Positions 3,723-63,680 of a stretch of DNA of 64,000 nucleotides are shown here, one piece after another. The notes beneath the pieces were generated by a model. It saw nothing but the letters and a program-made list of their open reading frames with translations, did no database searches and was not told the DNA's origin. Source of the stretch: Minisyncoccia bacterium (lineage in GTDB: Bacteria; Patescibacteriota; Minisyncoccia; Phycocordibacterales; PALSA-1337). Within the stretch, counting starts at the first letter, position 1; every line of letters begins with the position of its first letter. The position numbers and the translations under genes were made by a program. Location of the stretch: the NCBI GenBank assembly GCA_044228445.1, contig JBGAUV010000001.1, positions 250,495-314,494 of the forward strand, read 5' to 3'.

Positions 3723-5250
3723 TTAGTTAAGAGTTTGATCCTAGCTCAGGATGAACGCTGGCGGCGTGGATAAGGCATGCAAGTCAAACGGCTTAGCACT
3801 GTGCTCGCAAATTAATATTTGTTAGTAGAGTGCTAAGCAGTGGCAGACGAGGTAGTAATAAGCAGGTATCAACCTTCGAGTCAAGAATACCTCATCGAAA
3901 GATGAGTTAATACTTGATAGTCTCGAAAGAGTAAAGATTTATCGCTCGAAGATGAGCCTGTTCAGTATCAGCTAGTTGGTAGGGTAATGGCCTACCAAGG
4001 CTTCGACGCTTAGGGGAGGTGAGAGCCTGACCCCCACCGATGGAACTGAGACACGGTCCATACACCTACGGGTGGCCGCAGTCGAGAATCTTCCGCAATG
4101 GACGAAAGTCTGACGGAGCGACGCCGCGTGGATGATGAAGCACTTCGGTGCGTAAAATCCTTTTGCCAGGGAGAAAGTTTATTGATAGTACTTGGCGAAT
4201 AAGAGGTTGCTAAACTCGTGCCAGCAGCAGCGGTAATACGAGTGCCTCAAGCGTTATCCGGAATCATTGGGCGTAAAGGTTGTGTAGGTGGTTATATTAG
4301 TCTTTTGTTAAATTCTTCGGCTTAACCGGGGGCATGCAGAGGAAACGGTATAACTAGAGGATGCGAGGGGTTTCTGGAACTCATAGTGTAGCGGTAAAAT
4401 GCGTTGATATTATGGGGAACACCAAAAGCGAAGGCATGAAACTAGAGCACTCCTGACACTGAAACAAGAAAGCGTGGGTCGCGAATGGGATTAGATACCC
4501 CAGTAGTCCACGCCCTAAACGATCTTCTCTTGCTTTTCGGAGTATCGACCCTCCGAGAGGCGAAGCTAACGCGTTAAGAGAAGCGCCTGGGTAGTACGAC
4601 CGCAAGGTTAAAACTCAAAGGAATAGACGGGGACTTGCACAAGCGGTGGATCATGTGGCTCAATTCGACGGTAAACGAAGAACCTTACCAGGGTTTGAAA
4701 CCTAGCTGAATACTTTAGGAAACTAGAGTAGTCGCAAGACAGTTAGGCAGGTGATGCATGGCCGTCGTCAGTTCGTGGCTTGAGTTGTTCCCTTCAGTGG
4801 GGTAACGAACGCAACCCTCGTTGTCTGTTATATTTGTCAGGCGAGACTGCCCACGACATAGCGCATAAACTAAGTTTGTGCTCTGCGTCGTGGGAGGAAG
4901 GTGAGGATGACGCCAGGTCAGCATGTCCCTTTGATACCCTGGGCTGCACACGTGATACAATCGTATCTACAACAGGACGCAATACCGATAAAAGGTGGAG
5001 CAAATCCTTAGAAAAGATACGTCAGTTTGGATTGAGGTCTGCAACTCGACCTCATGAAACCGGAATCGCTAGTAATCGCAGATCAGCTATGCTGCGGTGA
5101 ATACGTTCTCAAGTCTTGTACTCACCGCCCGTCAACTCAAGGGAGTTGGGAGTACCCGAAGTCCGCGCTTGTCGCGGCCTAAGGTAAGCTCAATGACAGG
5201 GAGTAAGTCGTAACAAGGCACGGGTAGCGGAAGCTGCTCGTGGATTATTT
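3723..5250 (+). rRNA. rrs: 16S ribosomal RNA
   Basis: AGAGTTTGATCCTAGCTCAG at 3730; GTGCCAGCAGCAGCGGTAATACG (515 region, one mismatch to the universal primer); AAGTCGTAACAAGG at 5206; helix 45 with GGAA loop at 5221-5240. Confidence 0.95.
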
Positions 5251-5407
5251 CAAATTGAATCTTGATAATCCCTCAGGGATTATCTTACCGAGTCGATTTT
5301 TGTACTTAATTGTACAAACAAGGGATATTGTTCTACTACCTTACAGTGAACACTCAGTCTGCGAGAGAAAAGACAAAGATCGGTGTCCTCTATAGAGACA
5401 CTGATCG

Positions 5408-17840: not shown

Positions 17841-19019
17841 ATGAGCTTTAAGGAAATTTATAAAAATAAGCTCTTATTAAATGGAACTGTATTCATAATA
17901 TTTCTTGTCGTCTCTGTAAAAATTTCTAACATACCTTTTATATATAATGCATATACTAGTTCAATAACTGATGCACTCGGTACAACAACAATACTTTTAA
18001 ATAAAAAGAAAATTGTTCATATACAAACCCCTGAACCAGTAAAAGCTGTTTATATGACTAGCTGGGTAGCGGGGAATATAAAATTAAGAAATAAAGTTAT
18101 TGATTTAATAGATAAGACAGAAATAAATTCCATTGTAATAGACATAAAGGATTATACAGGCAGAATAAGTTTTAAAGTTGATGATGAAAAATTAAAAGAA
18201 ATTGGTTCTGTAGAAGAAAGAATACCAGATATTGTTGGTTTGATTGATATGTTACATGAAAAAAATATTTATGTAATTGGTAGAATATCTAGTTTTCAAG
18301 ATTCATATTTTGTAAAGAAATTCCCTCAATATTCTGTAAAGACAAAGAGTGGGGAAGTTTGGAAGGATTATAAAGGAATAAGTTGGCTTGATGCTGGTGC
18401 CGAACCCGTATGGGATTATCTGGTTAATATAGGTAATGAAGCATATTCAAAAGGTTTTGATGAATTAAATTTTGACTACATACGTTTTCCTTCAGATGGA
18501 AACATGATAGATATTTCATATACTTTCGGTAAAGGTAGAAATAGAGTAGATGTAATGAAAGATTTTTATGCTTTTATTGATAAATCTTTTAGACCAAAAG
18601 GAATTCCAATTTCAGCAGATTTATTTGGTATGACAACTTCAAATAGTGATGACTTGGGAATAGGACAAATTCTTGGAAATGCACTTATGCATTTTGATTA
18701 TGTTGCGCCAATGATATATCCATCGCACTACCCACCAAACTTCAATGGTTGGCCAAATCCTGCAAAGAAACCATATGATGTTATCAAGTTTGCCCTTGAA
18801 AGGGGAGTGAATAAAGCTGCAATTGCTAGCACAAGTCCAAATAAACTACGTCCTTGGTTACAAGACTTTGGTATAAATGGTGTTCCATATACTCCAGATA
18901 TGGTTCGTGAACAAATTAAGGCTACATATGATGTTGGTCTTACGAGTTGGATGATGTGGAATGCTTCAAATAATTATTCTCTACCAGCATATGAAGTTGC
19001 AACTAGTACGGGAGTTTAG
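17841..19019 (+). CDS. Putative glycoside hydrolase (DUF4015-like TIM-barrel), membrane anchored
   Basis: GFDELNFDYIRFP motif; N-terminal TM anchor. Confidence 0.6.
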   Translation: MSFKEIYKNKLLLNGTVFIIFLVVSVKISNIPFIYNAYTSSITDALGTTTILLNKKKIVHIQTPEPVKAVYMTSWVAGNIKLRNKVIDLIDKTEINSIVIDIKDYTGRISFKVDDEKLKEIGSVEERIPDIVGLIDMLHEKNIYVIGRISSFQDSYFVKKFPQYSVKTKSGEVWKDYKGISWLDAGAEPVWDYLVNIGNEAYSKGFDELNFDYIRFPSDGNMIDISYTFGKGRNRVDVMKDFYAFIDKSFRPKGIPISADLFGMTTSNSDDLGIGQILGNALMHFDYVAPMIYPSHYPPNFNGWPNPAKKPYDVIKFALERGVNKAAIASTSPNKLRPWLQDFGINGVPYTPDMVREQIKATYDVGLTSWMMWNASNNYSLPAYEVATSTGV

Positions 19020-19023
19020 CTGT

Positions 19024-19053
19024 TGACAGAAAAGGTTGTTGCGTGCTAATATA
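19024..19053 (+). promoter_or_regulatory. Sigma70-type promoter TTGACA-N18-TAATAT with extended -10 (TGc)
   Basis: Read directly; immediately after the stop of the upstream gene. Confidence 0.55.
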
Positions 19054-19059
19054 TTTTTG

Positions 19060-19190
19060 CCACCCCAGAGGTATGAAATTGTTCCGTCGTCACCTCCTAG
19101 TGACCACAGGGTCATACCCCACGACGGGATGATCGATTACCTCTGAGGGTGGTATACGGCTTGCAGAATTTTTCTGCGGCCTTTTTTATT
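19060..19190 (+). ncRNA. Candidate structured small RNA (~130 nt), class unknown
   Basis: P1 CCACCC-c-AGAGGTA (19061-74) pairs with TACCTCT-ga-GGGTGG (19138-52). P2 is CCGTCGT/ACGACGG. Inner hairpin TGACC-ACAG-GGTCA. Own terminator GGC-GCAGAA-TTT-TTCTGC-GGCC plus a T6 run. Confidence 0.55.
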
Positions 19191-19344
19191 TATATTATAT
19201 TTATACACAATAAGTATTGCCTTTTTCATATATTAGATGTACTATATTTATCCGGATGCACTCTACCTCGGTTTACTACTAGGAGGTGGTAGACTCAATA
19301 GGGGTAAGGGGGAGCATTGAACCTAGTTAAGTTAGGAGGTCAAA

Positions 19345-19530
19345 GTGTCAAAGGAAAATCCTGTGACGTCATGGAGGGTGATCGGGAAGCCGGTAGTCCG
19401 AAGTGACGGACACAATATTGTCAAAGTCGATAATGGAGGAAAGAGGCCGAGAGAAGTCCTTGTACCAAAGGGCACTCCAGCCAAAAATTTCAACGCCTTT
19501 ATCAAGCAGGCATTGTATCCCACTTATTGA
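19345..19530 (+). CDS. Small (61 aa) protein of unknown function, GC-richer than flanks
   Basis: GTG start 4 nt after TAGGAGGT; followed by two hairpins including a GC-rich terminator. Confidence 0.55.
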   Translation: MSKENPVTSWRVIGKPVVRSDGHNIVKVDNGGKRPREVLVPKGTPAKNFNAFIKQALYPTY

Positions 19531-19565
19531 CATGACTGACACTTCCCCTACGGGGGAAAACTACA

Positions 19566-19596
19566 CCGCCGGGCCCAGTGGACCCGGCGGTTTTGC
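19566..19596 (+). terminator. Rho-independent terminator
   Basis: CCGCCGGG-CCCAGTGGA-CCCGGCGG-TTTTG. Confidence 0.75.
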
Positions 19597-19657
19597 ATAT
19601 GTGGATAAATATTTCACCAATATAAAATATGGTATAATAGTATGAGTATAAAATCTC

Positions 19658-21517
19658 ATGAATGAAGAAAGAATTACATATTTTGCTCAAACAGACGCTA
19701 GAAATAAAAAGGTTTCCTTTGGAATAAAAGCAAAGGATAGAACTCGTCATGTTTATGTAATAGGAAAAACAGGTATGGGTAAATCAACCCTACTTGAAAA
19801 CATGGCTGTACAAGACATAAAGAATGGTGAAGGAATGGCTTTTATAGATCCACACGGTAAAACAGCAGACTTACTTTTGGAATATGTACCAAAAGAAAGA
19901 ATAAAAGATGTAATATATTTTGCTCCTTTCGATCTAGATCACCCAATATCATTTAATGTGCTTGAAAAAGTAGATGCAGATAAAAGACATCTAGTAGTAT
20001 CAGGTTTGATGAGTACATTTAAAAAGATTTGGAAAGATGCTTGGTCAGCAAGAATGGAATATATTCTTACAAATACACTTTTAGCACTTCTTGAATATCC
20101 AGAAGCAACTTTGCTTGGTGTAAATAGAATGCTTTCAGATAAAGAGTATAGAAAAAAGGTTGTAGCTTCAGTAACTGATCCAGCAGTAAAAACATTTTGG
20201 GTAGAAGAATTTGCAAACTATACAGAACGTATGGCAGCAGAAGCAGTACCTGCAATACAAAATAAAATAGGACAGTTTACAGCAAATGCACTAATTAGAA
20301 ATATGATTGGTCAGCCAAAATCTTCTTTTGATATAAGAAAAGCAATGGATGAAAAGAAGATTATGATTATAAACCTATCAAAAGGTAGAATAGGAGAAAC
20401 AAATGCAAATCTATTGGGAGGTATGCTTATTACAAAAATATATCTAGCAGCACTTTCGCGAGCAGATGTACCTGATAGAGTATTAAAAACACTACCAAAC
20501 TTCTATTTATTCGTAGACGAGTTTCAATCTTTTGCAAATGAATCTTTTGCAGATATTCTATCAGAAGCAAGAAAGTATAAATTGAATCTAACAATAGCCC
20601 ATCAATACATTGAACAAATGGAAGAGGAAGTTAGAGCTGCTGTATTTGGAAACGTCGGAACAATGATTGTATTTCGTGTTGGTTCGTATGATGCTGAGGT
20701 TTTAGAAAAAGAATTTGCTCCGCAGTTTACAGCTGAAGATATTGTAAATCTTGGTTTTGCTCAAATATATTTAAAACTTATGATTGATGGAATAAGTTCA
20801 CTACCATTTTCTGCTACAACACTACCTCCAATTCCACAACCAGAGATTTCAAATGCAGATGAAGTTTTAGCTACTTCCAGAGCACAATTTGCAAAAAATA
20901 GAGATGAAGTTGAAAAGAATATTGCAGATTGGCATGCACCCATTACACCTCCACAAAAGAATAAAATACCAAAACCTCCAGAAAATACAAAAACAGATAA
21001 TTTACATAAAAATCAAGATAATAATCCAGCTCATAATATTCCGAAACCAATTCCTATACCAGTAAAACCACAAATGGAAGTAAATAATATTCCAAAACCT
21101 CATGTTGTTCAAAATCCAACAGTAAATCAAGCACAATTGGATAATAAAAATAACACACAAATACAAAATAACAATCATGGCAATATGGAAAATCATAAAG
21201 TTCATACTGAAGTTAATAATCACAAAACTGAAGAAAAAAAAGATGATTTTATTTCACTTGAAAGTTTAAAGAAACAGGTTACAAATACAGCTCCACAAAG
21301 TCAACACAAACCTCACGAAGTTCATGTAAAAAATGTAAAAGAACAAGATCCAAAAAATGTCAGTGAACTTAGAAATGCTTTAGCTTCAGTACTAAAGAAT
21401 AATAATTTACCTAAAAAAGACGAGGTAGATAAAAAAGAAAAAAATGAGGTAAAAAATGAGGTTCAAAAAGGTGAGGTTTCAGAGGATGTACTAAAACAGG
21501 TACTTAAGGTAGAGTAA
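19658..21517 (+). CDS. VirD4/TraG/TraD-like (T4SS coupling-protein-like) P-loop ATPase with a long low-complexity C-terminal tail
   Basis: Walker A GKTGMGKST, Walker B FYLFVDEFQSF, IAHQY; no N-terminal TM; tail rich in N/K/P/H/Q. Confidence 0.7.
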   Translation: MNEERITYFAQTDARNKKVSFGIKAKDRTRHVYVIGKTGMGKSTLLENMAVQDIKNGEGMAFIDPHGKTADLLLEYVPKERIKDVIYFAPFDLDHPISFNVLEKVDADKRHLVVSGLMSTFKKIWKDAWSARMEYILTNTLLALLEYPEATLLGVNRMLSDKEYRKKVVASVTDPAVKTFWVEEFANYTERMAAEAVPAIQNKIGQFTANALIRNMIGQPKSSFDIRKAMDEKKIMIINLSKGRIGETNANLLGGMLITKIYLAALSRADVPDRVLKTLPNFYLFVDEFQSFANESFADILSEARKYKLNLTIAHQYIEQMEEEVRAAVFGNVGTMIVFRVGSYDAEVLEKEFAPQFTAEDIVNLGFAQIYLKLMIDGISSLPFSATTLPPIPQPEISNADEVLATSRAQFAKNRDEVEKNIADWHAPITPPQKNKIPKPPENTKTDNLHKNQDNNPAHNIPKPIPIPVKPQMEVNNIPKPHVVQNPTVNQAQLDNKNNTQIQNNNHGNMENHKVHTEVNNHKTEEKKDDFISLESLKKQVTNTAPQSQHKPHEVHVKNVKEQDPKNVSELRNALASVLKNNNLPKKDEVDKKEKNEVKNEVQKGEVSEDVLKQVLKVE

Positions 21518-60226: not shown

Positions 60227-60646
60227 ATGTTAGTTGTTAAGACTAAAATTAAAAATAGTGAAATTGAAGGACTAGGTCTATTTGCTGATCAGTTTATACC
60301 TAAAGGTAGTGTAATTTGGAAATATGATCCAAGTTTTGATATTTATTTTGATCCTAAGGAGGTAGAAAAAATGTCAGAACCGCAAAAAGACCTGATAATA
60401 CATTTTGCTTATCTTTCAAAAAAAAGTGGTAAATATGTTTATTCAATAGATAATACAAGATTCACAAATCATTCAAATAAACCAAATACCGTAGAAGATG
60501 AAAATGTTTGTAGTGATGATTTAGAAATATGTACTATTGCTGTTAAGGATATTCAAATAGGGGAGGAAATTACTATTGATTATCGGGTAATTGACGCAGT
60601 GGATGAAGGTAGTAATGAGGAGTATTTGAAGACGGTAGTTCTATAG
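60227..60646 (+). CDS. SET-domain protein (putative lysine methyltransferase)
   Basis: GLGLFA, RFTNHSNKPN, GEEITIDY; starts 3 nt after the nrdB stop, preceded by GGGGGAG. Confidence 0.8.
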   Translation: MLVVKTKIKNSEIEGLGLFADQFIPKGSVIWKYDPSFDIYFDPKEVEKMSEPQKDLIIHFAYLSKKSGKYVYSIDNTRFTNHSNKPNTVEDENVCSDDLEICTIAVKDIQIGEEITIDYRVIDAVDEGSNEEYLKTVVL

Positions 60647-60663
60647 AGTTTTTATGGTTTAGG
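60628..60663 (+). repeat. Junction motif copy 1
   Basis: GAAGACGGTAGTTCTATAGAGTTTTTATGGTTTAGG; supplies the last 6 codons and the stop of the SET gene. Confidence 0.7.
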
Positions 60664-60703
60664 AATAAAAGTGGGCTCACCGAAACGAATTTCAGTGAGC
60701 CCA
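60660..60703 (-). terminator. Minus-strand terminator hairpin
   Basis: On the minus strand: TGGGCTCAC-N14-GTGAGCCCA followed by CTTTTATT. Confidence 0.5.
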
Positions 60704-60748
60704 GGGACAACCTTTTTCTCATGTTTCGCTCGCCACTACTTAGATACC

Positions 60749-60921
60749 TAAGATTTAGGCAAAAATTTACCCCACTTACATTTCCGTAAGTGGGGCGTAC
60801 CTAGGAATTTAGGATGACTTGAATCGTCTTGCGACGAATGATCAGAGCCATAAAAACCTAGATATATAAGATACTGACTTCTACATCACAGCAAACTACT
60901 ATAACTTTGTCAAGTGACAAA
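60749..60921 (+). repeat. 173-bp repeat, copy 1
   Basis: 172/173 identical to 62711-62883 by manual alignment (C/T difference at 60888 versus 62850). Confidence 0.9.
60758..60878 (-). ncRNA. Candidate sRNA A, copy 1 (~120 nt)
   Basis: Minus-strand promoter TTGACA-N17-TGTGAT (60885-60913); internal TCGTC-GCAA-GACGA hairpin; terminator CCCCACTTAC-GGAAAT-GTAAGTGGGG then TAAATTTTTG. Confidence 0.5.
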
Positions 60922-60937
60922 TGTGTGTACCTAAAAC

Positions 60938-60964
60938 AGTGGTCTCATAGAGTTTAAGGTCTAG
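60938..60964 (+). repeat. Junction motif copy 2
   Basis: AGTGGTCTCATAGAGTTTAAGGTCTAG. Confidence 0.7.
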
Positions 60965-60969
60965 CTATA

Positions 60970-60998
60970 TTGACATACTAAACTAAATGTGCTATTTT
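60970..60998 (+). promoter_or_regulatory. Promoter of cassette A: TTGACA-N17-TATTTT with extended -10 TG
   Basis: Read directly. Confidence 0.5.
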
Positions 60999-61017
60999 TG
61001 TATGTAATAGCACATTT
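60985..61017. promoter_or_regulatory. 11-bp perfect inverted repeat spanning the -10/TSS (operator-like)
   Basis: AAATGTGCTAT-N11-ATAGCACATTT. Confidence 0.55.
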
Positions 61018-61050
61018 CAACGATTTCAACCCAAAACCATTAGGAGAACC

Positions 61051-61425
61051 ATGAGCAAGCCTTCTTTCACCGTATTTGTTGGCATAAAGGGCGAATTCTC
61101 AGAAGAAGATTACGCCAAACTTCCGTCCGAGCTTCGAAAAGCATACTCGCCGTGTCCTGAATGGGATCTGGGAGAGGAAATCATTATCGACGGATTGGAA
61201 TTTGATTCCTTTGACCTTGGTCGCGATGACACTGCTGATCCGGGAGAATATGTGGGCTTCGGCGTCCATATCTTCGGTCAGTGGTATGACAGCGGAGCTA
61301 CTTGCTTCGCTCTTGATGAGCTTCAAACAATCGAATCTGTTCGTCAGAAGATGACAACTCTCTTCGATCAATGGAAGCTCGATGCCAAAGTCGAAGTGTT
61401 CTGCTTTGCAGGATACAATTCATAA
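61051..61425 (+). CDS. Island cassette A: acidic 124-aa protein, unknown function
   Basis: TAGGAGA-N5-ATG; GC-rich codon usage unlike the flanks; own terminator. Confidence 0.65.
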   Translation: MSKPSFTVFVGIKGEFSEEDYAKLPSELRKAYSPCPEWDLGEEIIIDGLEFDSFDLGRDDTADPGEYVGFGVHIFGQWYDSGATCFALDELQTIESVRQKMTTLFDQWKLDAKVEVFCFAGYNS

Positions 61426-61441
61426 CCCATCAACTCACTCC

Positions 61442-61480
61442 AGAAAACCCCTGTCGCGAGATGGTGGGTTTTCTGTTTTA
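61442..61480 (+). terminator. Rho-independent terminator of cassette A
   Basis: AGAAAACCC...GGGTTTTCT-GTTTTAT. Confidence 0.7.
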
Positions 61481-61654
61481 TAAAATTCCAATATGTTGAT
61501 ACTAACAGACTTGAACGGCATCCTAAATAGATGTCATTTATTGTTACTTGCTATATAAAAATCTCGTTGATATGTTGTTAGGTAAGACGAGCTTGAAATC
61601 AAAATAAAAACTAGAGCATCTTCTATGGGGAATTCAATCAGTATTTAACTCTGT

Positions 61655-61688
61655 GAAGACGGTAGTATTATAGAGTTTAAGGTTTAGA
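61655..61688 (+). repeat. Junction motif copy 3
   Basis: GAAGACGGTAGTATTATAGAGTTTAAGGTTTAGA; the upstream AGTATTT is also shared with copy 1. Confidence 0.7.
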
Positions 61689-61692
61689 CTAC

Positions 61693-61720
61693 TTGACATA
61701 TGACCATGTCGTGATATAAT
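61693..61720 (+). promoter_or_regulatory. Promoter of cassette B: TTGACA-N16-TATAAT with extended -10 (TGa)
   Basis: Near-consensus sigma70 promoter read directly. Confidence 0.7.
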
Positions 61721-61779
61721 TTAAAAGGACTAGGATTTTTCCTAATGCTGTCCAGCAAAATCATACTTGGAGGATAGAA

Positions 61780-62139
61780 ATGTACTCTGACGATAAAACT
61801 CTAAAAGAGTTCATGACTGTACTTGTAAGTACAGCTGCGGCTCGGAGAAACTACTTGGATGTCCCTAGCGATTTCATTTTGAGACATCCCTGGACACTGA
61901 AATACCTTTCCAATTTCGCTGAGGCTGACGATTTCATGCAGATCGCGAAAACGGAAGGAGTCCAGATTGTTTGCGAGGATGAACCCAAAAACATTCAAGA
62001 GTTTCGCCGGGACCATGGTCTCAAACCACAGGTTCGCTACAAAGTGTTTGTTCCAGCCGAAACAAAAATCAGAACAAAAGAACAGATCTTCAAGTTCGAA
62101 AGACAAGGAGATGGTTCATATGTTCCACTCAATGGCTGA
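61780..62139 (+). CDS. Island cassette B: 119-aa protein, unknown function
   Basis: TGGAGGA-N5-ATG; own terminator. Confidence 0.65.
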   Translation: MYSDDKTLKEFMTVLVSTAAARRNYLDVPSDFILRHPWTLKYLSNFAEADDFMQIAKTEGVQIVCEDEPKNIQEFRRDHGLKPQVRYKVFVPAETKIRTKEQIFKFERQGDGSYVPLNG

Positions 62140-62142
62140 ACC

Positions 62143-62187
62143 AAAACCCCATCTACGCTTTCATGAGAAGATGGGGTTTTGTCTTTT
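62143..62187 (+). terminator. Rho-independent terminator of cassette B
   Basis: AAAACCCCATCT-N14-AGATGGGGTTTT-GTCTTTT. Confidence 0.75.
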
Positions 62188-62188
62188 A

Positions 62189-62222
62189 GAAGATGGTGGT
62201 TTAATGTAGTTTAAAATTTAGA
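62189..62222 (+). repeat. Junction motif copy 4
   Basis: GAAGATGGTGGTTTAATGTAGTTTAAAATTTAGA. Confidence 0.6.
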
Positions 62223-62388
62223 TAAAAGAAAGCCGGCCAAACCTTATGGGTCTGGCCGGGAAAGTGATGGGTATGCGCCCATCTGCGGATCATTTACGAT
62301 CATTTTGCCAGTAAAATAAGGTTATTTCTGGTTACGTATCCCTGGTATTGTGTCCAGACACGTAACTTATGAATACTAACCTTATTCT
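62222..62388 (-). ncRNA. Candidate sRNA B (~165 nt), same promoter as sRNA A, different body
   Basis: Promoter TTGACA-N17-TATGAT (62395-62423, minus strand). Long hairpin AATAAGGTTA...TAACCTTATT enclosing GTTACGT/ACGTAAC. GATGGG-CGCATA-CCCATC hairpin. Terminator CCGGCCAGACC-CATAAGG-GGTTTGGCCGG then CTTTCTTTT. Confidence 0.5.
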
Positions 62389-62429
62389 TTTACCATCATA
62401 GCAAATTACTATAACTTTGTCAAGTATTC

Positions 62430-62462
62430 AAAGATGTCGGTGTTATGGAGTTCAAGTTCTAA
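62430..62462 (+). repeat. Junction motif copy 5
   Basis: AAAGATGTCGGTGTTATGGAGTTCAAGTTCTAA. Confidence 0.55.
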
Positions 62463-62478
62463 CCTCTATTGATATAAT
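62451..62478 (+). promoter_or_regulatory. Promoter of cassette C: extended -10 TGaTATAAT, weak -35 TTCAAG
   Basis: Read directly. Confidence 0.5.
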
Positions 62479-62522
62479 TAATCTAGAGTGTTAATCTTCT
62501 TTTTAAGAAAGGAGAGTACATC

Positions 62523-62720
62523 ATGATCAAAATTACTGTCCGTAAAGAAGGAGAGAGAACCTTTGCGGCCTATGTGGACGATGAAAATATGCGGCGCATA
62601 GGTGAGTCTCGAGGAGAAGCTGTTGGCAAAGTCGTATCTGATCTCATTGAACAAAGGTCAGTACGGTTGGAAGATTGTCAAGTGCATCAAATCGAGATTA
62701 AACAAAAATATAAGATTTAG
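62523..62720 (+). CDS. Island cassette C: 65-aa protein, faint HicB/DUF1902-like N-terminal pattern
   Basis: AAAGGAGAG-N6-ATG; MIKITVRKEGERTFAAYVDD...GESRGEAVGKVVSDLIE. Confidence 0.55.
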   Translation: MIKITVRKEGERTFAAYVDDENMRRIGESRGEAVGKVVSDLIEQRSVRLEDCQVHQIEIKQKYKI

Positions 62721-62883
62721 GCAAAAATTTACCCCACTTACATTTCCGTAAGTGGGGCGTACCTAGGAATTTAGGATGACTTGAATCGTCTTGCGACGAA
62801 TGATCAGAGCCATAAAAACCTAGATATATAAGATACTGACTTCTACATCATAGCAAACTACTATAACTTTGTCAAGTGACAAA
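62711..62883 (+). repeat. 173-bp repeat, copy 2
   Basis: See copy 1; begins inside the last codons of cassette C. Confidence 0.9.
62720..62840 (-). ncRNA. Candidate sRNA A, copy 2
   Basis: Promoter TTGACA-N17-TATGAT (62847-62875, minus strand); body identical to copy 1. Confidence 0.5.
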
Positions 62884-62910
62884 GATAGTGGTCTCATCGG
62901 GTTTAAAATA
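62881..62910 (+). repeat. Junction motif copy 6 (degenerate)
   Basis: AAAGATAGTGGTCTCATCGGGTTTAAAATA. Confidence 0.5.
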
Positions 62911-62917
62911 ACCAGTA

Positions 62918-62946
62918 TTTACAATTTGTATAATTTAGTATATAAA
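62918..62946 (+). promoter_or_regulatory. Promoter of cassette D: TTTACA-N17-TATAAA
   Basis: Read directly. Confidence 0.5.
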
Positions 62947-62981
62947 AAATGTAGACTTAATTTAACACTGAAAGGTGCATC

Positions 62982-63200
62982 ATGAGTATTCTAAGAGAAT
63001 TCCGTAACGCCAGCCCAAGTGAAAAAGACCCTGCAAAACTTATTTTATTCACAGTATTTGCTGACCTTAATGCTCGGCACGGCTTCGGGGATTTCTGGAG
63101 CGGTATTAACAATGATATAAAAGAAGAAATTTTGAAAACAAATCTCGAAAAGATAAGAGAAATACTGAAGAAAAAGACTCAAACCAAAAACAAAGATTGA
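62982..63200 (+). CDS. Island cassette D: 72-aa protein, unknown function
   Basis: AAAGGTG-N4-ATG; own terminator. Confidence 0.6.
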   Translation: MSILREFRNASPSEKDPAKLILFTVFADLNARHGFGDFWSGINNDIKEEILKTNLEKIREILKKKTQTKNKD

Positions 63201-63331: not shown

Positions 63332-63336
63332 TATTA

Positions 63337-63672
63337 GGTACCAGACAGTTGCTATGATACGAAAGTATCGTAGAGGAAAGTCCGAACATTGGCCTGACGC
63401 AAGTTAGGCAGAAAGGTAGCGGGTAACGCCCGTCAGTCGAAGGACTAGAGGTGCGAACAGAGACGTCTTTATTGGAAACGATAAAGAGACCCTTCGGGGT
63501 TAGCTTGTATAGAAATATATGAGGTGCAACGGCAAAATCCTTACCCCAATGCAAGGCCGTGCTTTATAGGAAACTATAAAGAGTGCCGCTTGAGGTTAAT
63601 TGCAAAATTAATCCCAGATAAATGACTGTCGTTCGTTTTTAACGAATACAGAATTCGGCTTACAGGTACAAT
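63337..63672 (+). ncRNA. rnpB: RNase P RNA, bacterial type A
   Basis: ACCAGACAGTTGC, GAGGAAAGTCCG, GGTAACGCC, GCAAGGCC, GCCGCTTGAGG, AGATAAATGACTGTC, ACAGAATTCGGCTTA all align to the E. coli M1 RNA conserved blocks. Confidence 0.9.
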
Positions 63673-63680
63673 ATGAAAAA

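What the first reader, a model, noticed from the sequence alone, without database searches (positions are those of the whole stretch)
19020..19600. GC-rich mini-island: promoter-driven ~130-nt structured RNA plus an SD-led 61-aa gene upstream of the VirD4-like ATPase
Between two ordinary low-GC genes lies about 600 bp of visibly higher GC. Element (i) is a near-consensus promoter (TTGACA-N18-TGcTAATAT). Element (ii) is an RNA with a 13-bp closing helix, a 7-bp inner helix, a nested hairpin and its own GC-rich terminator. Element (iii) is a second promoter-like site (TTGCCT-N17-TACTAT, 19214-19242). Element (iv) is a 5' UTR carrying a degenerate junction-motif copy (GGAGGTGGTAGACTCAATAGGGGTAAGG, 19283-19310). 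Element (v) is a GTG-initiated 61-aa ORF with a perfect SD and double terminator hairpins. I could not match the RNA to SRP, 6S, tmRNA or any riboswitch consensus I know. The organisation and motif tie this locus to the 60-63 kb island.
Basis: seen in the sequence. Interest (0 to 1): 0.6.

Follow-up and report, generated by a model that had tools for sequence, protein, structure and literature searches.

The report
Small RNA plus small-protein gene pair
Between two ordinary genes of an uncultured Parcubacteria-type bacterium sit a previously undescribed hairpin-shaped small RNA gene and a real 61-residue protein gene. The RNA's exposed CCUCC loop is complementary to GGAGG sites in the neighbouring mRNA, and the host's own ribosomes have lost that CCUCC sequence.

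Summary
Positions 19020-19600 are GC-elevated (0.40-0.50 against about 0.28) and contain two self-contained transcription units.

Unit 1 has a near-consensus promoter, a hairpin of about 100 nt and an intrinsic terminator. The fold is far more stable than shuffles (z = -7.8). It matches no Rfam family. Four strain alleles keep the pairing through G-U and compensatory changes.

Unit 2 has a weaker but phylogenetically conserved promoter, a 95-nt structured leader, a 61-aa ORF and terminator hairpins. The ORF is a real gene. Two homologues (53% and 44% identity) sit in the same slot after the DUF4015 gene in other species, and substitutions show a third-codon bias.

The "junction-motif" link to the 60-63 kb island is not supported.

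The "perfect SD" cannot act canonically. The host 16S lacks the anti-SD and 43 of 46 long ORFs have no SD.

The RNA's unpaired CACCUCCUAGU is the exact complement of ACUAGGAGGUG in the leader, and this 11-mer pair is unique in the window. It also matches the SD-like site.

My best model, which is inferred, is a neighbour-encoded antisense sRNA that controls the small basic protein's mRNA. The protein's function is unknown. There is no expression data.

The parts
19023..19052 (+). Promoter P1: TTGACA-N18 (including TGc)-TAATAT. It overlaps the stop codon region of the DUF4015 gene.
   Evidence: It matches 10 of 12 positions with a TG extension. The same -35/TGC/-10 layout is present in the strain alleles and in L088.
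19058..19154 (+). RNA1 hairpin. It has a 16-bp closing helix, a 4x4 internal loop, a 13-bp helix, an asymmetric internal loop and a 6-bp apical hairpin.
   Evidence: The fold has z = -7.83. The covariance model scores 155 bits on the + strand against 31 bits on the - strand. Across 4 alleles 98.8% of cells pair, with 3 compensatory and 10 one-sided changes.
19091..19101 (+). Unpaired C-rich, anti-SD-like segment CACCUCCUAGU of RNA1.
   Evidence: P(unpaired) is 0.91. It is the exact reverse complement of 19278-19288, and this 11-mer pair is unique in the 64 kb. It holds the only + strand CCTCC in the window's non-coding DNA.
19158..19187 (+). Intrinsic terminator of RNA1: a GC-rich stem followed by a U-run.
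   Evidence: All 10 pairs are invariant in the 4 alleles.
19214..19242 (+). Promoter P2: TTGCCT-N17-TACTAT.
   Evidence: It matches only 8 of 12 positions to consensus. A positionally equivalent TTGC(A/T)T-N16/17-TA(G/C)TAT lies upstream of the conserved ATCCGGATG start in related species.
19250..19344 (+). 5' leader of the ORF mRNA. It forms a 5'-terminal stem-loop domain (GAUGC...GCAUU closing helix). Inside it is a hairpin that displays GGAGG (19282-19286). A second, SD-like GGAGG lies at 19335-19339.
   Evidence: Local folds and unpaired probabilities are. The same 5'-terminal closing design appears in 8 of 10 species leaders.
19345..19530 (+). Gene for a 61-aa basic protein with a GTG start. 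The predicted fold is a three-stranded sheet followed by a C-terminal helix.
   Evidence: Homologues P0002 and P0003 have E = 8e-13 and 2.8e-9 against 1.84 billion proteins. They occupy the same slot after DUF4015. Codon-position differences are 21/19/42. AF2 gives pLDDT 80.8.
19543..19595 (+). Two 3' hairpins, UUCCCC-UAC-GGGGGAA and a 12-bp GC-rich stem, followed by UUUU. Together they form the terminator of the ORF mRNA, which may act in both directions.
   Evidence: The combined energy is -30.9 kcal/mol. The minus-strand reading is listed.

Best explanation
The locus is a pair of small, independently transcribed genes. They sit in a conserved 'small-gene slot' just 3' of the DUF4015 gene of a Parcubacteria-type (Patescibacteria) bacterium.

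Gene 1 makes a small RNA of about 125-130 nt (RNA1). It is one long imperfect hairpin plus an intrinsic terminator. An anti-SD-like sequence, CACCUCCU, is held single-stranded in an internal loop.

Gene 2 makes an mRNA with a 95-nt leader. The leader's 5'-terminal stem-loop displays GGAGG in a hairpin loop, and a second GGAGG sits 7 nt upstream of a GTG start. The mRNA encodes a 61-aa basic protein of unknown function.

Proposed mechanism (inferred): RNA1 base-pairs through its exposed CCUCC segment with one or both GGAGG sites of the neighbouring mRNA. Contact would begin as a loop-loop interaction, with up to 11 contiguous pairs in this strain. Pairing would set the mRNA's translation and/or stability.

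The host 16S rRNA has no anti-SD. The GGAGG sites are therefore more plausibly RNA1-binding sites than ribosome-binding sites.

Shown: the two units, the RNA structure and its conservation, that the ORF is coding, the complementarity, and the lack of anti-SD and SD use in the host.

Inferred: transcription itself, the pairing in vivo, the direction of regulation, and any role of the protein.
For: - Structure: z = -7.83. No Rfam family matches.
- Allele divergence: four strain alleles differ by 15% to about 45% in the hairpin, while the flanking genes differ by 6-7.5%.
- Pairing is kept: 98.8% of pair cells still pair, with 3 compensatory and 10 G-U-type one-sided changes. Slid controls pair only 40-64%.
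- Strand: the + strand scores 155 bits and the - strand 31 bits.
- Second species: L088 has the same layout. This comprises the promoter at the DUF4015 stop, an ~85-nt hairpin, a terminator, then P2, the leader and a homologous ORF. It matches the model weakly over full length at that exact place (10 bits, local E 0.0085).
- CCUCC is predicted unpaired in every allele and in L088 (P 0.91-0.99), although it sits in different parts of the hairpin.
- The 11-mer complement is unique in the window. Nineteen control sRNA-mRNA pairings from the same window reach only 6-8 nt.
- RNA1 holds the only non-coding + strand CCTCC in 64 kb. Two of the few non-coding GGAGG sites are in the adjacent leader.
- Co-occurrence: the window and L088 have both RNA1 and a GGAGG hairpin loop in the leader. 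L089 has neither. RNA1-like hairpins occur in none of about 50 other species whose slot carries unrelated ORFs.
- Host: the 16S tail reads GGAUUAUUUCAAAU instead of GGAUCACCUCCUUA. Of 46 long ORFs, 43 lack SD. This trait is known for part of Parcubacteria (PMC9297842).
- ORF coding evidence.
Against: - There is no transcript or TSS data.
- Only four alleles of one species and one distant analogue exist, so covariation is thin. The alignment was also fitted to the model.
- The extended complementarity is not conserved. It is 11 nt in the window, 9 nt in the common allele, about 6 nt in the L008/L091 allele and 7 nt in L088. Only the CCUCC:GGAGG core is constant.
- A whole-sequence duplex energy is no better than shuffles. 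That measure ignores accessibility.
- GGAGG-containing leader loops also occur in species without RNA1 (L017, L019).
- L089 keeps a GGAG before its start codon without RNA1.
- RNA1 could equally be read as the 3' end of the DUF4015 transcript.
- Other species carry long perfect palindromes at the same spot. This hints at a DNA-level or insertion origin for hairpins here.
Confidence: 0.4

Rival explanations
1. RNA1 has no function in trans. It is a 3'-UTR stabiliser and terminator module of the DUF4015 mRNA, or a decaying palindromic insertion at a site prone to such insertions. On this view the CCUCC/GGAGG complementarity is coincidental.
For: - There is no terminator between the DUF4015 stop codon and RNA1, so read-through would end at RNA1's terminator.
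- Other species carry long perfect inverted repeats at the same boundary (L049, L055, L077, L047).
- RNA1's interior evolves fast.
- The extended complementarity is not conserved.
Against: - A near-consensus extended -10 promoter is conserved in two species.
- The many G-U pairs make the element strand-specific, unlike the perfect palindromes.
- It is single-copy in the window.
- An exact 11-mer complement is an outlier against 6-8 nt in controls.
- CCUCC is kept unpaired in all alleles and in L088.
Confidence: 0.25
2. The pair is a toxin-antitoxin-like module of the non-overlapping type I kind, as in RalR/RalA or tisB/istR-1. The 61-aa basic protein would be growth-inhibiting, and RNA1 would be the RNA antitoxin that blocks its translation.
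For: - The locus pairs an adjacent sRNA with a small-protein gene, each with its own promoter and terminator.
- The sRNA is complementary to the mRNA leader and start region.
- RNA1 co-occurs only with this ORF family.
- The module has a patchy, cassette-like distribution.
Against: - There is no evidence of toxicity.
- The protein is hydrophilic with no membrane helix, unlike classical type I toxins.
- No PADLOC search was run. Pfam and PHROGs give no match.
- L089 keeps the ORF without RNA1 at this locus.
- HicA-like similarity is not supported.
Confidence: 0.1
3. RNA1 is a protein-binding RNA. For example, the neighbouring small basic protein could bind it, and could also bind the similar hairpin in its own leader as autoregulation. 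No RNA-RNA pairing would be involved.
For: - The protein is basic (11 K/R against 4 D/E, read from the sequence).
- RNA1 and the ORF family co-occur.
- The ORF and its leader are exceptionally conserved within the species.
Against: - No RNA-binding domain or fold match was found.
- Apart from CCUCC, RNA1's sequence and loop positions vary between alleles. That variability is hard to reconcile with a specific protein site.
Confidence: 0.1
4. Region 19250-19600 is a structured non-coding RNA, and the 61-aa ORF is a by-product of high GC in an AT-rich genome.
For: - The region folds with z = -5.9.
- ORFs are open on both strands.
- There are no synonymous differences among strains.
Against: - Protein-level homologues exist with E = 8e-13 and 2.8e-9.
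- Third codon positions change twice as often as first and second positions. Of 33 identical residues, 20 use different codons.
- The start position is conserved with L088.
Confidence: 0.03
5. RNA1 is a divergent member of a known RNA family such as SRP 4.5S, 6S, tmRNA, or a riboswitch/attenuator.
For: It is hairpin-shaped at about 100 nt, like small SRP RNA. The promoter-structure-terminator order resembles an attenuator.
Against: - There is no Rfam match even at E<=10, and ARAGORN finds no tmRNA.
- The apical loop and interior differ between strains of one species. That variability is incompatible with SRP or 6S.
- A separate promoter and leader lie between the terminator and the ORF.
- The hairpin is too stable to offer an alternative antiterminator fold.
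Confidence: 0.02

Closest known systems
C-rich-loop regulatory sRNAs of low-GC Gram-positive bacteria (the S. aureus Rsa RNAs and RNAIII type; Geissmann et al. 2009, PMC2790875, found)
   Same: Both are stand-alone, terminator-ended sRNAs. Each presents an unpaired C-rich motif (UCCC there, CCUCC here) that is complementary to the G-rich SD region of target mRNAs.
   Different: There is no sequence or Rfam relationship. RNA1 is one long hairpin encoded next to its putative target. The host ribosome itself lacks the anti-SD. If RNA1 pairs with the GGAGG sites, it would therefore not be competing with 16S for them.
Type I toxin-antitoxin pairs with non-overlapping sRNA genes (tisB/istR-1, zorO/orzO, RalR/RalA). 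This comparison is from my own knowledge.
   Same: A small protein gene and an adjacent small RNA gene each have their own promoter and terminator. A short stretch of complementarity (tens of nt or fewer) lies in the mRNA 5' region.
   Different: The genes are in tandem rather than divergent or overlapping. The protein is hydrophilic and basic, with no membrane helix. Toxicity is untested. One homologous locus, L089, lacks the RNA.
5'-terminal stem-loop mRNA stabilisers (the ompA, aprE and ermC leaders). This comparison is from my own knowledge.
   Same: The ORF mRNA starts with a stem-loop domain only 4-5 nt from the predicted 5' end. This design is conserved across species.
   Different: The element here also displays GGAGG in a loop. 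Its first 9 nt (AUCCGGAUG) are conserved across otherwise unrelated cassettes. Any stabilising role is inferred only.
Anti-SD-less ribosomes in a Parcubacteria subgroup (Tsurumaki et al. 2022, PMC9297842)
   Same: The window's 16S tail lacks CCUCC and its genes lack SD, as that paper describes for the subgroup.
   Different: That work does not describe SD-like motifs on small high-GC genes, or an sRNA that carries the missing motif.

Membership tests
Known Rfam RNA families (SRP, 6S, tmRNA, riboswitches, others) | Covariance-model match at or near the family's gathering score | tested here: not met
   There is no hit in 19020-19600 at gathering thresholds. At E<=10 the only hits are chance-level matches to the ORF terminator region. 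ARAGORN finds no tmRNA.
Independent sRNA gene (generic) | Own promoter, stable conserved secondary structure, intrinsic terminator | tested here: met
Independent sRNA gene (generic) | Detectable discrete transcript | not testable with these tools
   No transcriptome data are available.
C-rich-loop, SD-targeting sRNAs | Unpaired C-rich motif complementary to a G-rich site in the target's 5' region | tested here: met
   P(unpaired) is 0.91-0.99 for CCUCC. There are 11 nt of complementarity to the leader and 9 pairs, counted by hand, with the SD-like site.
C-rich-loop, SD-targeting sRNAs | Homology to a described member (RsaE and similar) | tested here: not met
   The Rfam scan is negative.
Type I toxin-antitoxin | Small hydrophobic membrane peptide as toxin | tested here: not met
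   The 61-aa protein is hydrophilic and basic. Its predicted fold is beta3-alpha with no TM helix.
Type I toxin-antitoxin | Antisense RNA complementary to the toxin mRNA | tested here: inconclusive
   Complementarity is 11 nt in this strain but only 6-9 nt in other alleles.
Type I toxin-antitoxin | Toxicity of the protein, relieved by the RNA | not testable with these tools
   This needs an experiment.
HicA toxin (dsRBD-like) | Profile or sequence match to HicA, with a HicA-like fold | tested here: not met
Cassettes of the 60-63 kb island (junction-motif array) | Copy of the ~40-nt junction motif at the cassette boundary | tested here: not met
   The nhmmer profile finds the six island copies and nothing in 19020-19600 at E<=100.
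MITE / multicopy palindromic element | Several copies in the genome; Watson-Crick palindrome | tested here: not met
   It is single-copy in the 64 kb. The helices contain many G-U pairs, which makes them strand-specific. The rest of the genome was not available.
Canonical Shine-Dalgarno-led gene | Host 16S 3' tail carries a complementary anti-SD | tested here: not met
   The 16S tail reads GGAUUAUUUCAAAU. Of 46 long ORFs, 43 lack SD-like motifs.

The most novel reading that the evidence does not exclude
In a lineage whose ribosomes have lost the anti-Shine-Dalgarno sequence, the CCUCC function survives on a dedicated small RNA. RNA1 would be a free-standing anti-SD mimic that reads GGAGG 'tags' carried by a minority of small, high-GC, cassette-like genes. 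Those would include its neighbour and perhaps the SD-bearing genes of the 60-63 kb island. RNA1 would silence, license or time their expression, which would give the cell a separate control channel for this gene class.
Probability: 0.1. Interest if true: 0.8.

Novelty: new member of a known kind. Interest (0 to 1): 0.5.

Why it matters
Almost nothing is known about regulatory RNAs or small proteins in Patescibacteria. They cannot be grown alone and are seen mainly as MAGs. This locus gives three concrete, testable things.

1. It is an sRNA candidate with structure conservation, a defined promoter and terminator, and a specific predicted target next door.

2. It is an orphan small-protein family with a clear coding signature. 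The gene sits in a conserved slot that carries unrelated small genes in about 50 related species.

3. It poses a puzzle. SD-like GGAGG motifs and a CCUCC-bearing RNA persist in an organism whose ribosome cannot read SD. If the pairing is real, it shows what becomes of SD/anti-SD complementarity once the ribosome gives it up.

If the pairing is not real, the locus is still a clean example of how high-GC islands in very AT-rich genomes flag small, structured and probably highly expressed genes that annotation misses.

Tried and rejected
- Rfam gathering and permissive scans of the window, the region and 13 related loci gave nothing relevant. ARAGORN found no tmRNA.
- SRP, 6S and riboswitch readings were rejected. 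The apical and interior sequence differs between strains, and no alternative fold is available.
- The junction-motif link was rejected by a profile search.
- Searches for more homologues added little:
  - An exact-pattern metagenome scan for the RNA1 terminator found nothing.
  - The protein-profile metagenome scan found one same-species contig, and the viral scan found nothing.
  - A second word-indexed protein search added nothing.
  - Extra cluster members gave only repeats of known RNA1 alleles.
- The covariance model R1 found no RNA1 in 58 sources holding 629 kb.
- My recollection that the protein resembles Sso7d or HicA was not borne out:
  - PDB sequence search gave no significant hit.
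  - Foldseek against PDB gave a best E of 0.5.
  - The viral structure library gave a best E of 0.14.
  - hhalign against HicA gave probability 0.2%.
- Pfam and PHROGs scans of this and nine other slot ORFs found nothing.
- Whole-sequence RNAduplex energies were uninformative.
- MAFFT could not align the divergent RNA1 alleles in structural register, so model-based alignment was used instead.
- The afdb50 library was unavailable.

Full report
**Setting.** The window comes from a very AT-rich Patescibacteria (Parcubacteria/Paceibacteria-type) genome. The closest public contigs are labelled as uncultured Saccharibacteria, Taylorbacteria or Paceibacterota MAGs. Long ORFs have GC 0.28 and GC3 0.15. 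The finding lies between a DUF4015 putative glycosyl-hydrolase gene (17841-19019) and a TrwB/TraG-like ATPase gene (19658-21517). GC rises to 0.40-0.50 across 18900-19600, against 0.21-0.35 around it.

**Unit 1 (RNA1).**
- The best promoter match in the region is TTGACA-N18-TAATAT with a TG extension at 19023-19052, matching 10 of 12 positions.
- The downstream 130 nt fold into one long imperfect hairpin and a terminator. The MFE is -64.4 kcal/mol, z = -7.83, and no shuffle of 200 folds as well.
- The hairpin (19058-19154) has a 16-bp closing helix with one bulge, a 4x4 internal loop, a 13-bp helix, an asymmetric internal loop and a 6-bp apical hairpin. The terminator is at 19158-19187.
- No Rfam family matches, at gathering thresholds or at E<=10, and ARAGORN finds no tmRNA.
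- The element is single-copy in the window.

**Strain alleles.**
- Contigs of the same species have flanking genes 92.5-93.9% identical in DNA. They carry RNA1 in four allelic forms.
- The hairpin is the most divergent segment of the neighbourhood: 85% identity in the common allele and about 55% in the L008/L091 allele.
- The promoter and terminator stay conserved.
- A covariance model built from three alleles finds the fourth at 63 bits. The + strand scores 155 bits against 31 bits for the - strand, because many pairs are G-U.
- On the model-based alignment 98.8% of pair cells form standard pairs. Three pairs change on both sides and ten change on one side. Slid controls pair only 40-64%.
- This is positive but thin evidence. 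There are four sequences from one species, and the alignment is fitted to the model.

**Unit 2 (leader and ORF).**
- TTGCCT-N17-TACTAT (19214-19242) matches consensus poorly, at 8 of 12 positions, and is not listed.
- It nevertheless precedes a transcript start, ATCCGGATG, at the same spacing as promoters in about ten related species.
- In 8 of 10 such leaders the 5' GAUG pairs with a downstream CAU(C/U) to close a 5'-terminal stem-loop domain.
- The GTG ORF 19345-19530 encodes 61 residues.
- Against 1.84 billion representative proteins it has only three relatives. One is the same species. The others are P0002 (53% identity, E 8e-13) and P0003 (44%, E 2.8e-9).
- P0002 (L088) lies immediately downstream of an annotated DUF4015 gene. 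P0003 (L089) follows a partial ORF whose end resembles the DUF4015 C-terminus, as read from the sequence. In both, type IV pilin-like and prepilin-peptidase genes follow, not the ATPase.
- Codon-position differences are 21/19/42 for window against L088, and 20 of 33 identical residues use different codons. This is a protein-coding gene.
- AlphaFold2 with the four-sequence alignment gives pLDDT 80.8, with a three-stranded sheet and a C-terminal helix.
- No sequence or fold library gives a significant match. A HicA-like reading that I entertained is not supported.
- The protein is basic (11 K/R against 4 D/E, read from the sequence).
- Two hairpins and a U-run end the unit at 19543-19595.

**The slot.**
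- Across 55 species-level loci that keep DUF4015 upstream of the ATPase (or, in L088 and L089, pilin genes), 49 have a 300-1400-nt gap. GC-rich patches in these gaps are seen.
- The dozen or so gaps I read in detail hold a promoter, a structured leader, a small ORF and a strong terminator.
- The ORFs are almost all unrelated to each other by BLASTP. Only four small clusters form among 80 candidates.
- The window's unit 2 is therefore one occupant of a conserved small-gene slot anchored to DUF4015.
- The high GC3 of the ORF (0.50, against 0.15 for the host) is also seen in its homologues (0.43 and 0.44, against hosts at 0.18 and 0.19). It is therefore a persistent property, not a sign of very recent transfer.

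**The island link.**
- A profile of the six junction-motif copies in 60.6-62.9 kb recovers all six (E 1e-8 to 3e-5). It finds nothing in 19020-19600 even at E<=100 with filters off.
- The two loci share only general traits: small ORFs, raised GC3, SD-like motifs, and their own promoters and terminators.

**The SD problem.**
- The 16S gene in the window ends ...GUGGAUUAUUUCAAAU where bacteria normally have ...GGAUCACCUCCUUA. The anti-SD is absent.
- Of 46 long ORFs, 43 have no GGAG/GAGG/AGGA in positions -20 to -3. Many start a few bases after a -10 box.
- Loss of the anti-SD motif in part of Parcubacteria is published (PMC9297842).
- The 'perfect SD' of the 61-aa ORF therefore cannot work in the canonical way. 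Even so, GGAG(G) is kept 5-8 nt upstream of the start in all three homologues.

**RNA1 and its neighbour.**
- RNA1's asymmetric internal loop reads CACCUCCUAGU (19091-19101), with P(unpaired) 0.91.
- It is the exact complement of ACUAGGAGGUG (19278-19288) in the leader. That sequence forms the top of a hairpin with GGAG in the loop (P(unpaired) 0.77).
- The 11-mer occurs in the 64 kb only at these two places.
- Nineteen control pairings of small RNAs and 5' regions from the same window reach only 6-8 nt.
- The same loop can form 9 pairs, one of them G-U, with the SD-like UUAGGAGGU before the start codon. This count is read from the sequence.
- RNA1 carries the only + strand CCTCC in the window's non-coding DNA.
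- In L088 the positional analogue of RNA1 presents ACCUCC as its apical loop (P(unpaired) 0.99). The L088 leader presents UGGAGGU in a hairpin loop, giving 7 complementary nt.
- L089 lacks both RNA1 and the GGAGG loop.
- No RNA1-like hairpin with exposed CCUCC exists in the slots of the other species.

Several observations count against this link.
- The extended complementarity shrinks to 9 and about 6 nt in other alleles of the same species.
- GGAGG loops also occur in some leaders without RNA1.
- A crude whole-molecule duplex energy is unremarkable.

**Verdict.**
- That RNA1 is a genuine structured RNA element: I put this at about 0.8.
- That the ORF is a real gene: about 0.95.
- That RNA1 regulates the neighbouring mRNA through CCUCC:GGAGG pairing: plausible and testable, but only inferred. 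The whole model stands at about 0.4.
- The main rival is that RNA1 is merely the structured 3' end of the DUF4015 transcript, or a degenerating palindromic insertion. Long perfect palindromes sit at the same boundary in L049, L055, L077 and L047.
- The protein's function is unknown. A toxin-antitoxin reading is possible but has no direct support.

**An unexplained detail.** Within the species the ORF is 185/186 identical while the flanks differ by 6-7.5%. Either synonymous sites are constrained, for example by mRNA structure, or this segment has recently spread among strains.

Noticed in passing
window 5240-5260 (16S 3' end), and start regions of 46 long ORFs across the window: The 16S rRNA lacks the anti-Shine-Dalgarno sequence: it reads GGAUUAUUUCAAAU where CACCUCCUUA is expected. 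Of 46 long ORFs, 43 have no SD-like motif, and many start codons lie a few bases after a -10 box, which suggests leaderless or short-leader mRNAs. This matches the Parcubacteria subgroup described in PMC9297842.
   Followed up: partly
window 60600-63000: This is a tandem array of small high-GC ORFs (124, 119, 65 and 72 aa), each with its own promoter, SD-like motif and terminator. They are separated by six copies of a ~40-nt motif (AAGAYGGTRGT..ATAGAGTTTAAGGTYTAG). The first copy is the 3' end of ORF 60227-60646. That looks like repeated insertion at one attachment site.
   Followed up: partly
window 60749-60921 and 62711-62883 (99% identical), plus 62215-62425; minus strand: Three minus-strand units each have a TTGACA-N17-T(A/G)TGAT promoter, a well-folded 150-190-nt RNA and a strong terminator. 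Each diverges from an island ORF. Units A and A' contain a possible 16-codon ORF (MALIIRRKTIQVILNS). They have at most 8 nt of complementarity to the neighbouring leaders.
   Followed up: partly
L009-L087: gap between the DUF4015 gene and the ATPase gene: In 49 of 55 related species the gap is 300-1400 nt. The gaps examined hold a promoter, a 5' stem-loop leader (often starting ATCCGGATG), a small ORF and a strong terminator. The ORFs are almost all unrelated to one another. This is a conserved slot with hypervariable small-gene content.
   Followed up: partly
L049:4294-4440, L055:~4430-4590, L077:~4265-4500, L047:~4415-4500: Long, nearly perfect inverted repeats (35-60 bp arms) sit directly after the DUF4015 stop codon, at the place RNA1 occupies in the window. 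They are possibly mobile palindromic elements or bidirectional terminators.
   Followed up: no
window 19345-19530 compared with L001 and L008: The 61-aa ORF is 185/186 identical between strains whose flanking genes are only 92.5-93.9% identical. The adjacent RNA1 hairpin is 85% or about 55% identical. A cold spot lies right next to a hot spot.
   Followed up: partly
L005:1-1700: In one strain contig the DUF4015 gene is reduced to its last ~130-144 codons. Different, higher-GC genes lie upstream. This is a rearrangement or insertion in that strain.
   Followed up: no
window 19601-19657 and the equivalent positions in L009-L028: The ATPase gene has a conserved extended -10 promoter (TGnTAAAAT or TGGTATAAT) about 20-30 nt before its ATG, with no SD.
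   Followed up: no
window 63333-63678: The RNase P RNA (bacterial class A) scores 120 bits, only just above the gathering score of 100. Several helices are shortened.
   Followed up: no
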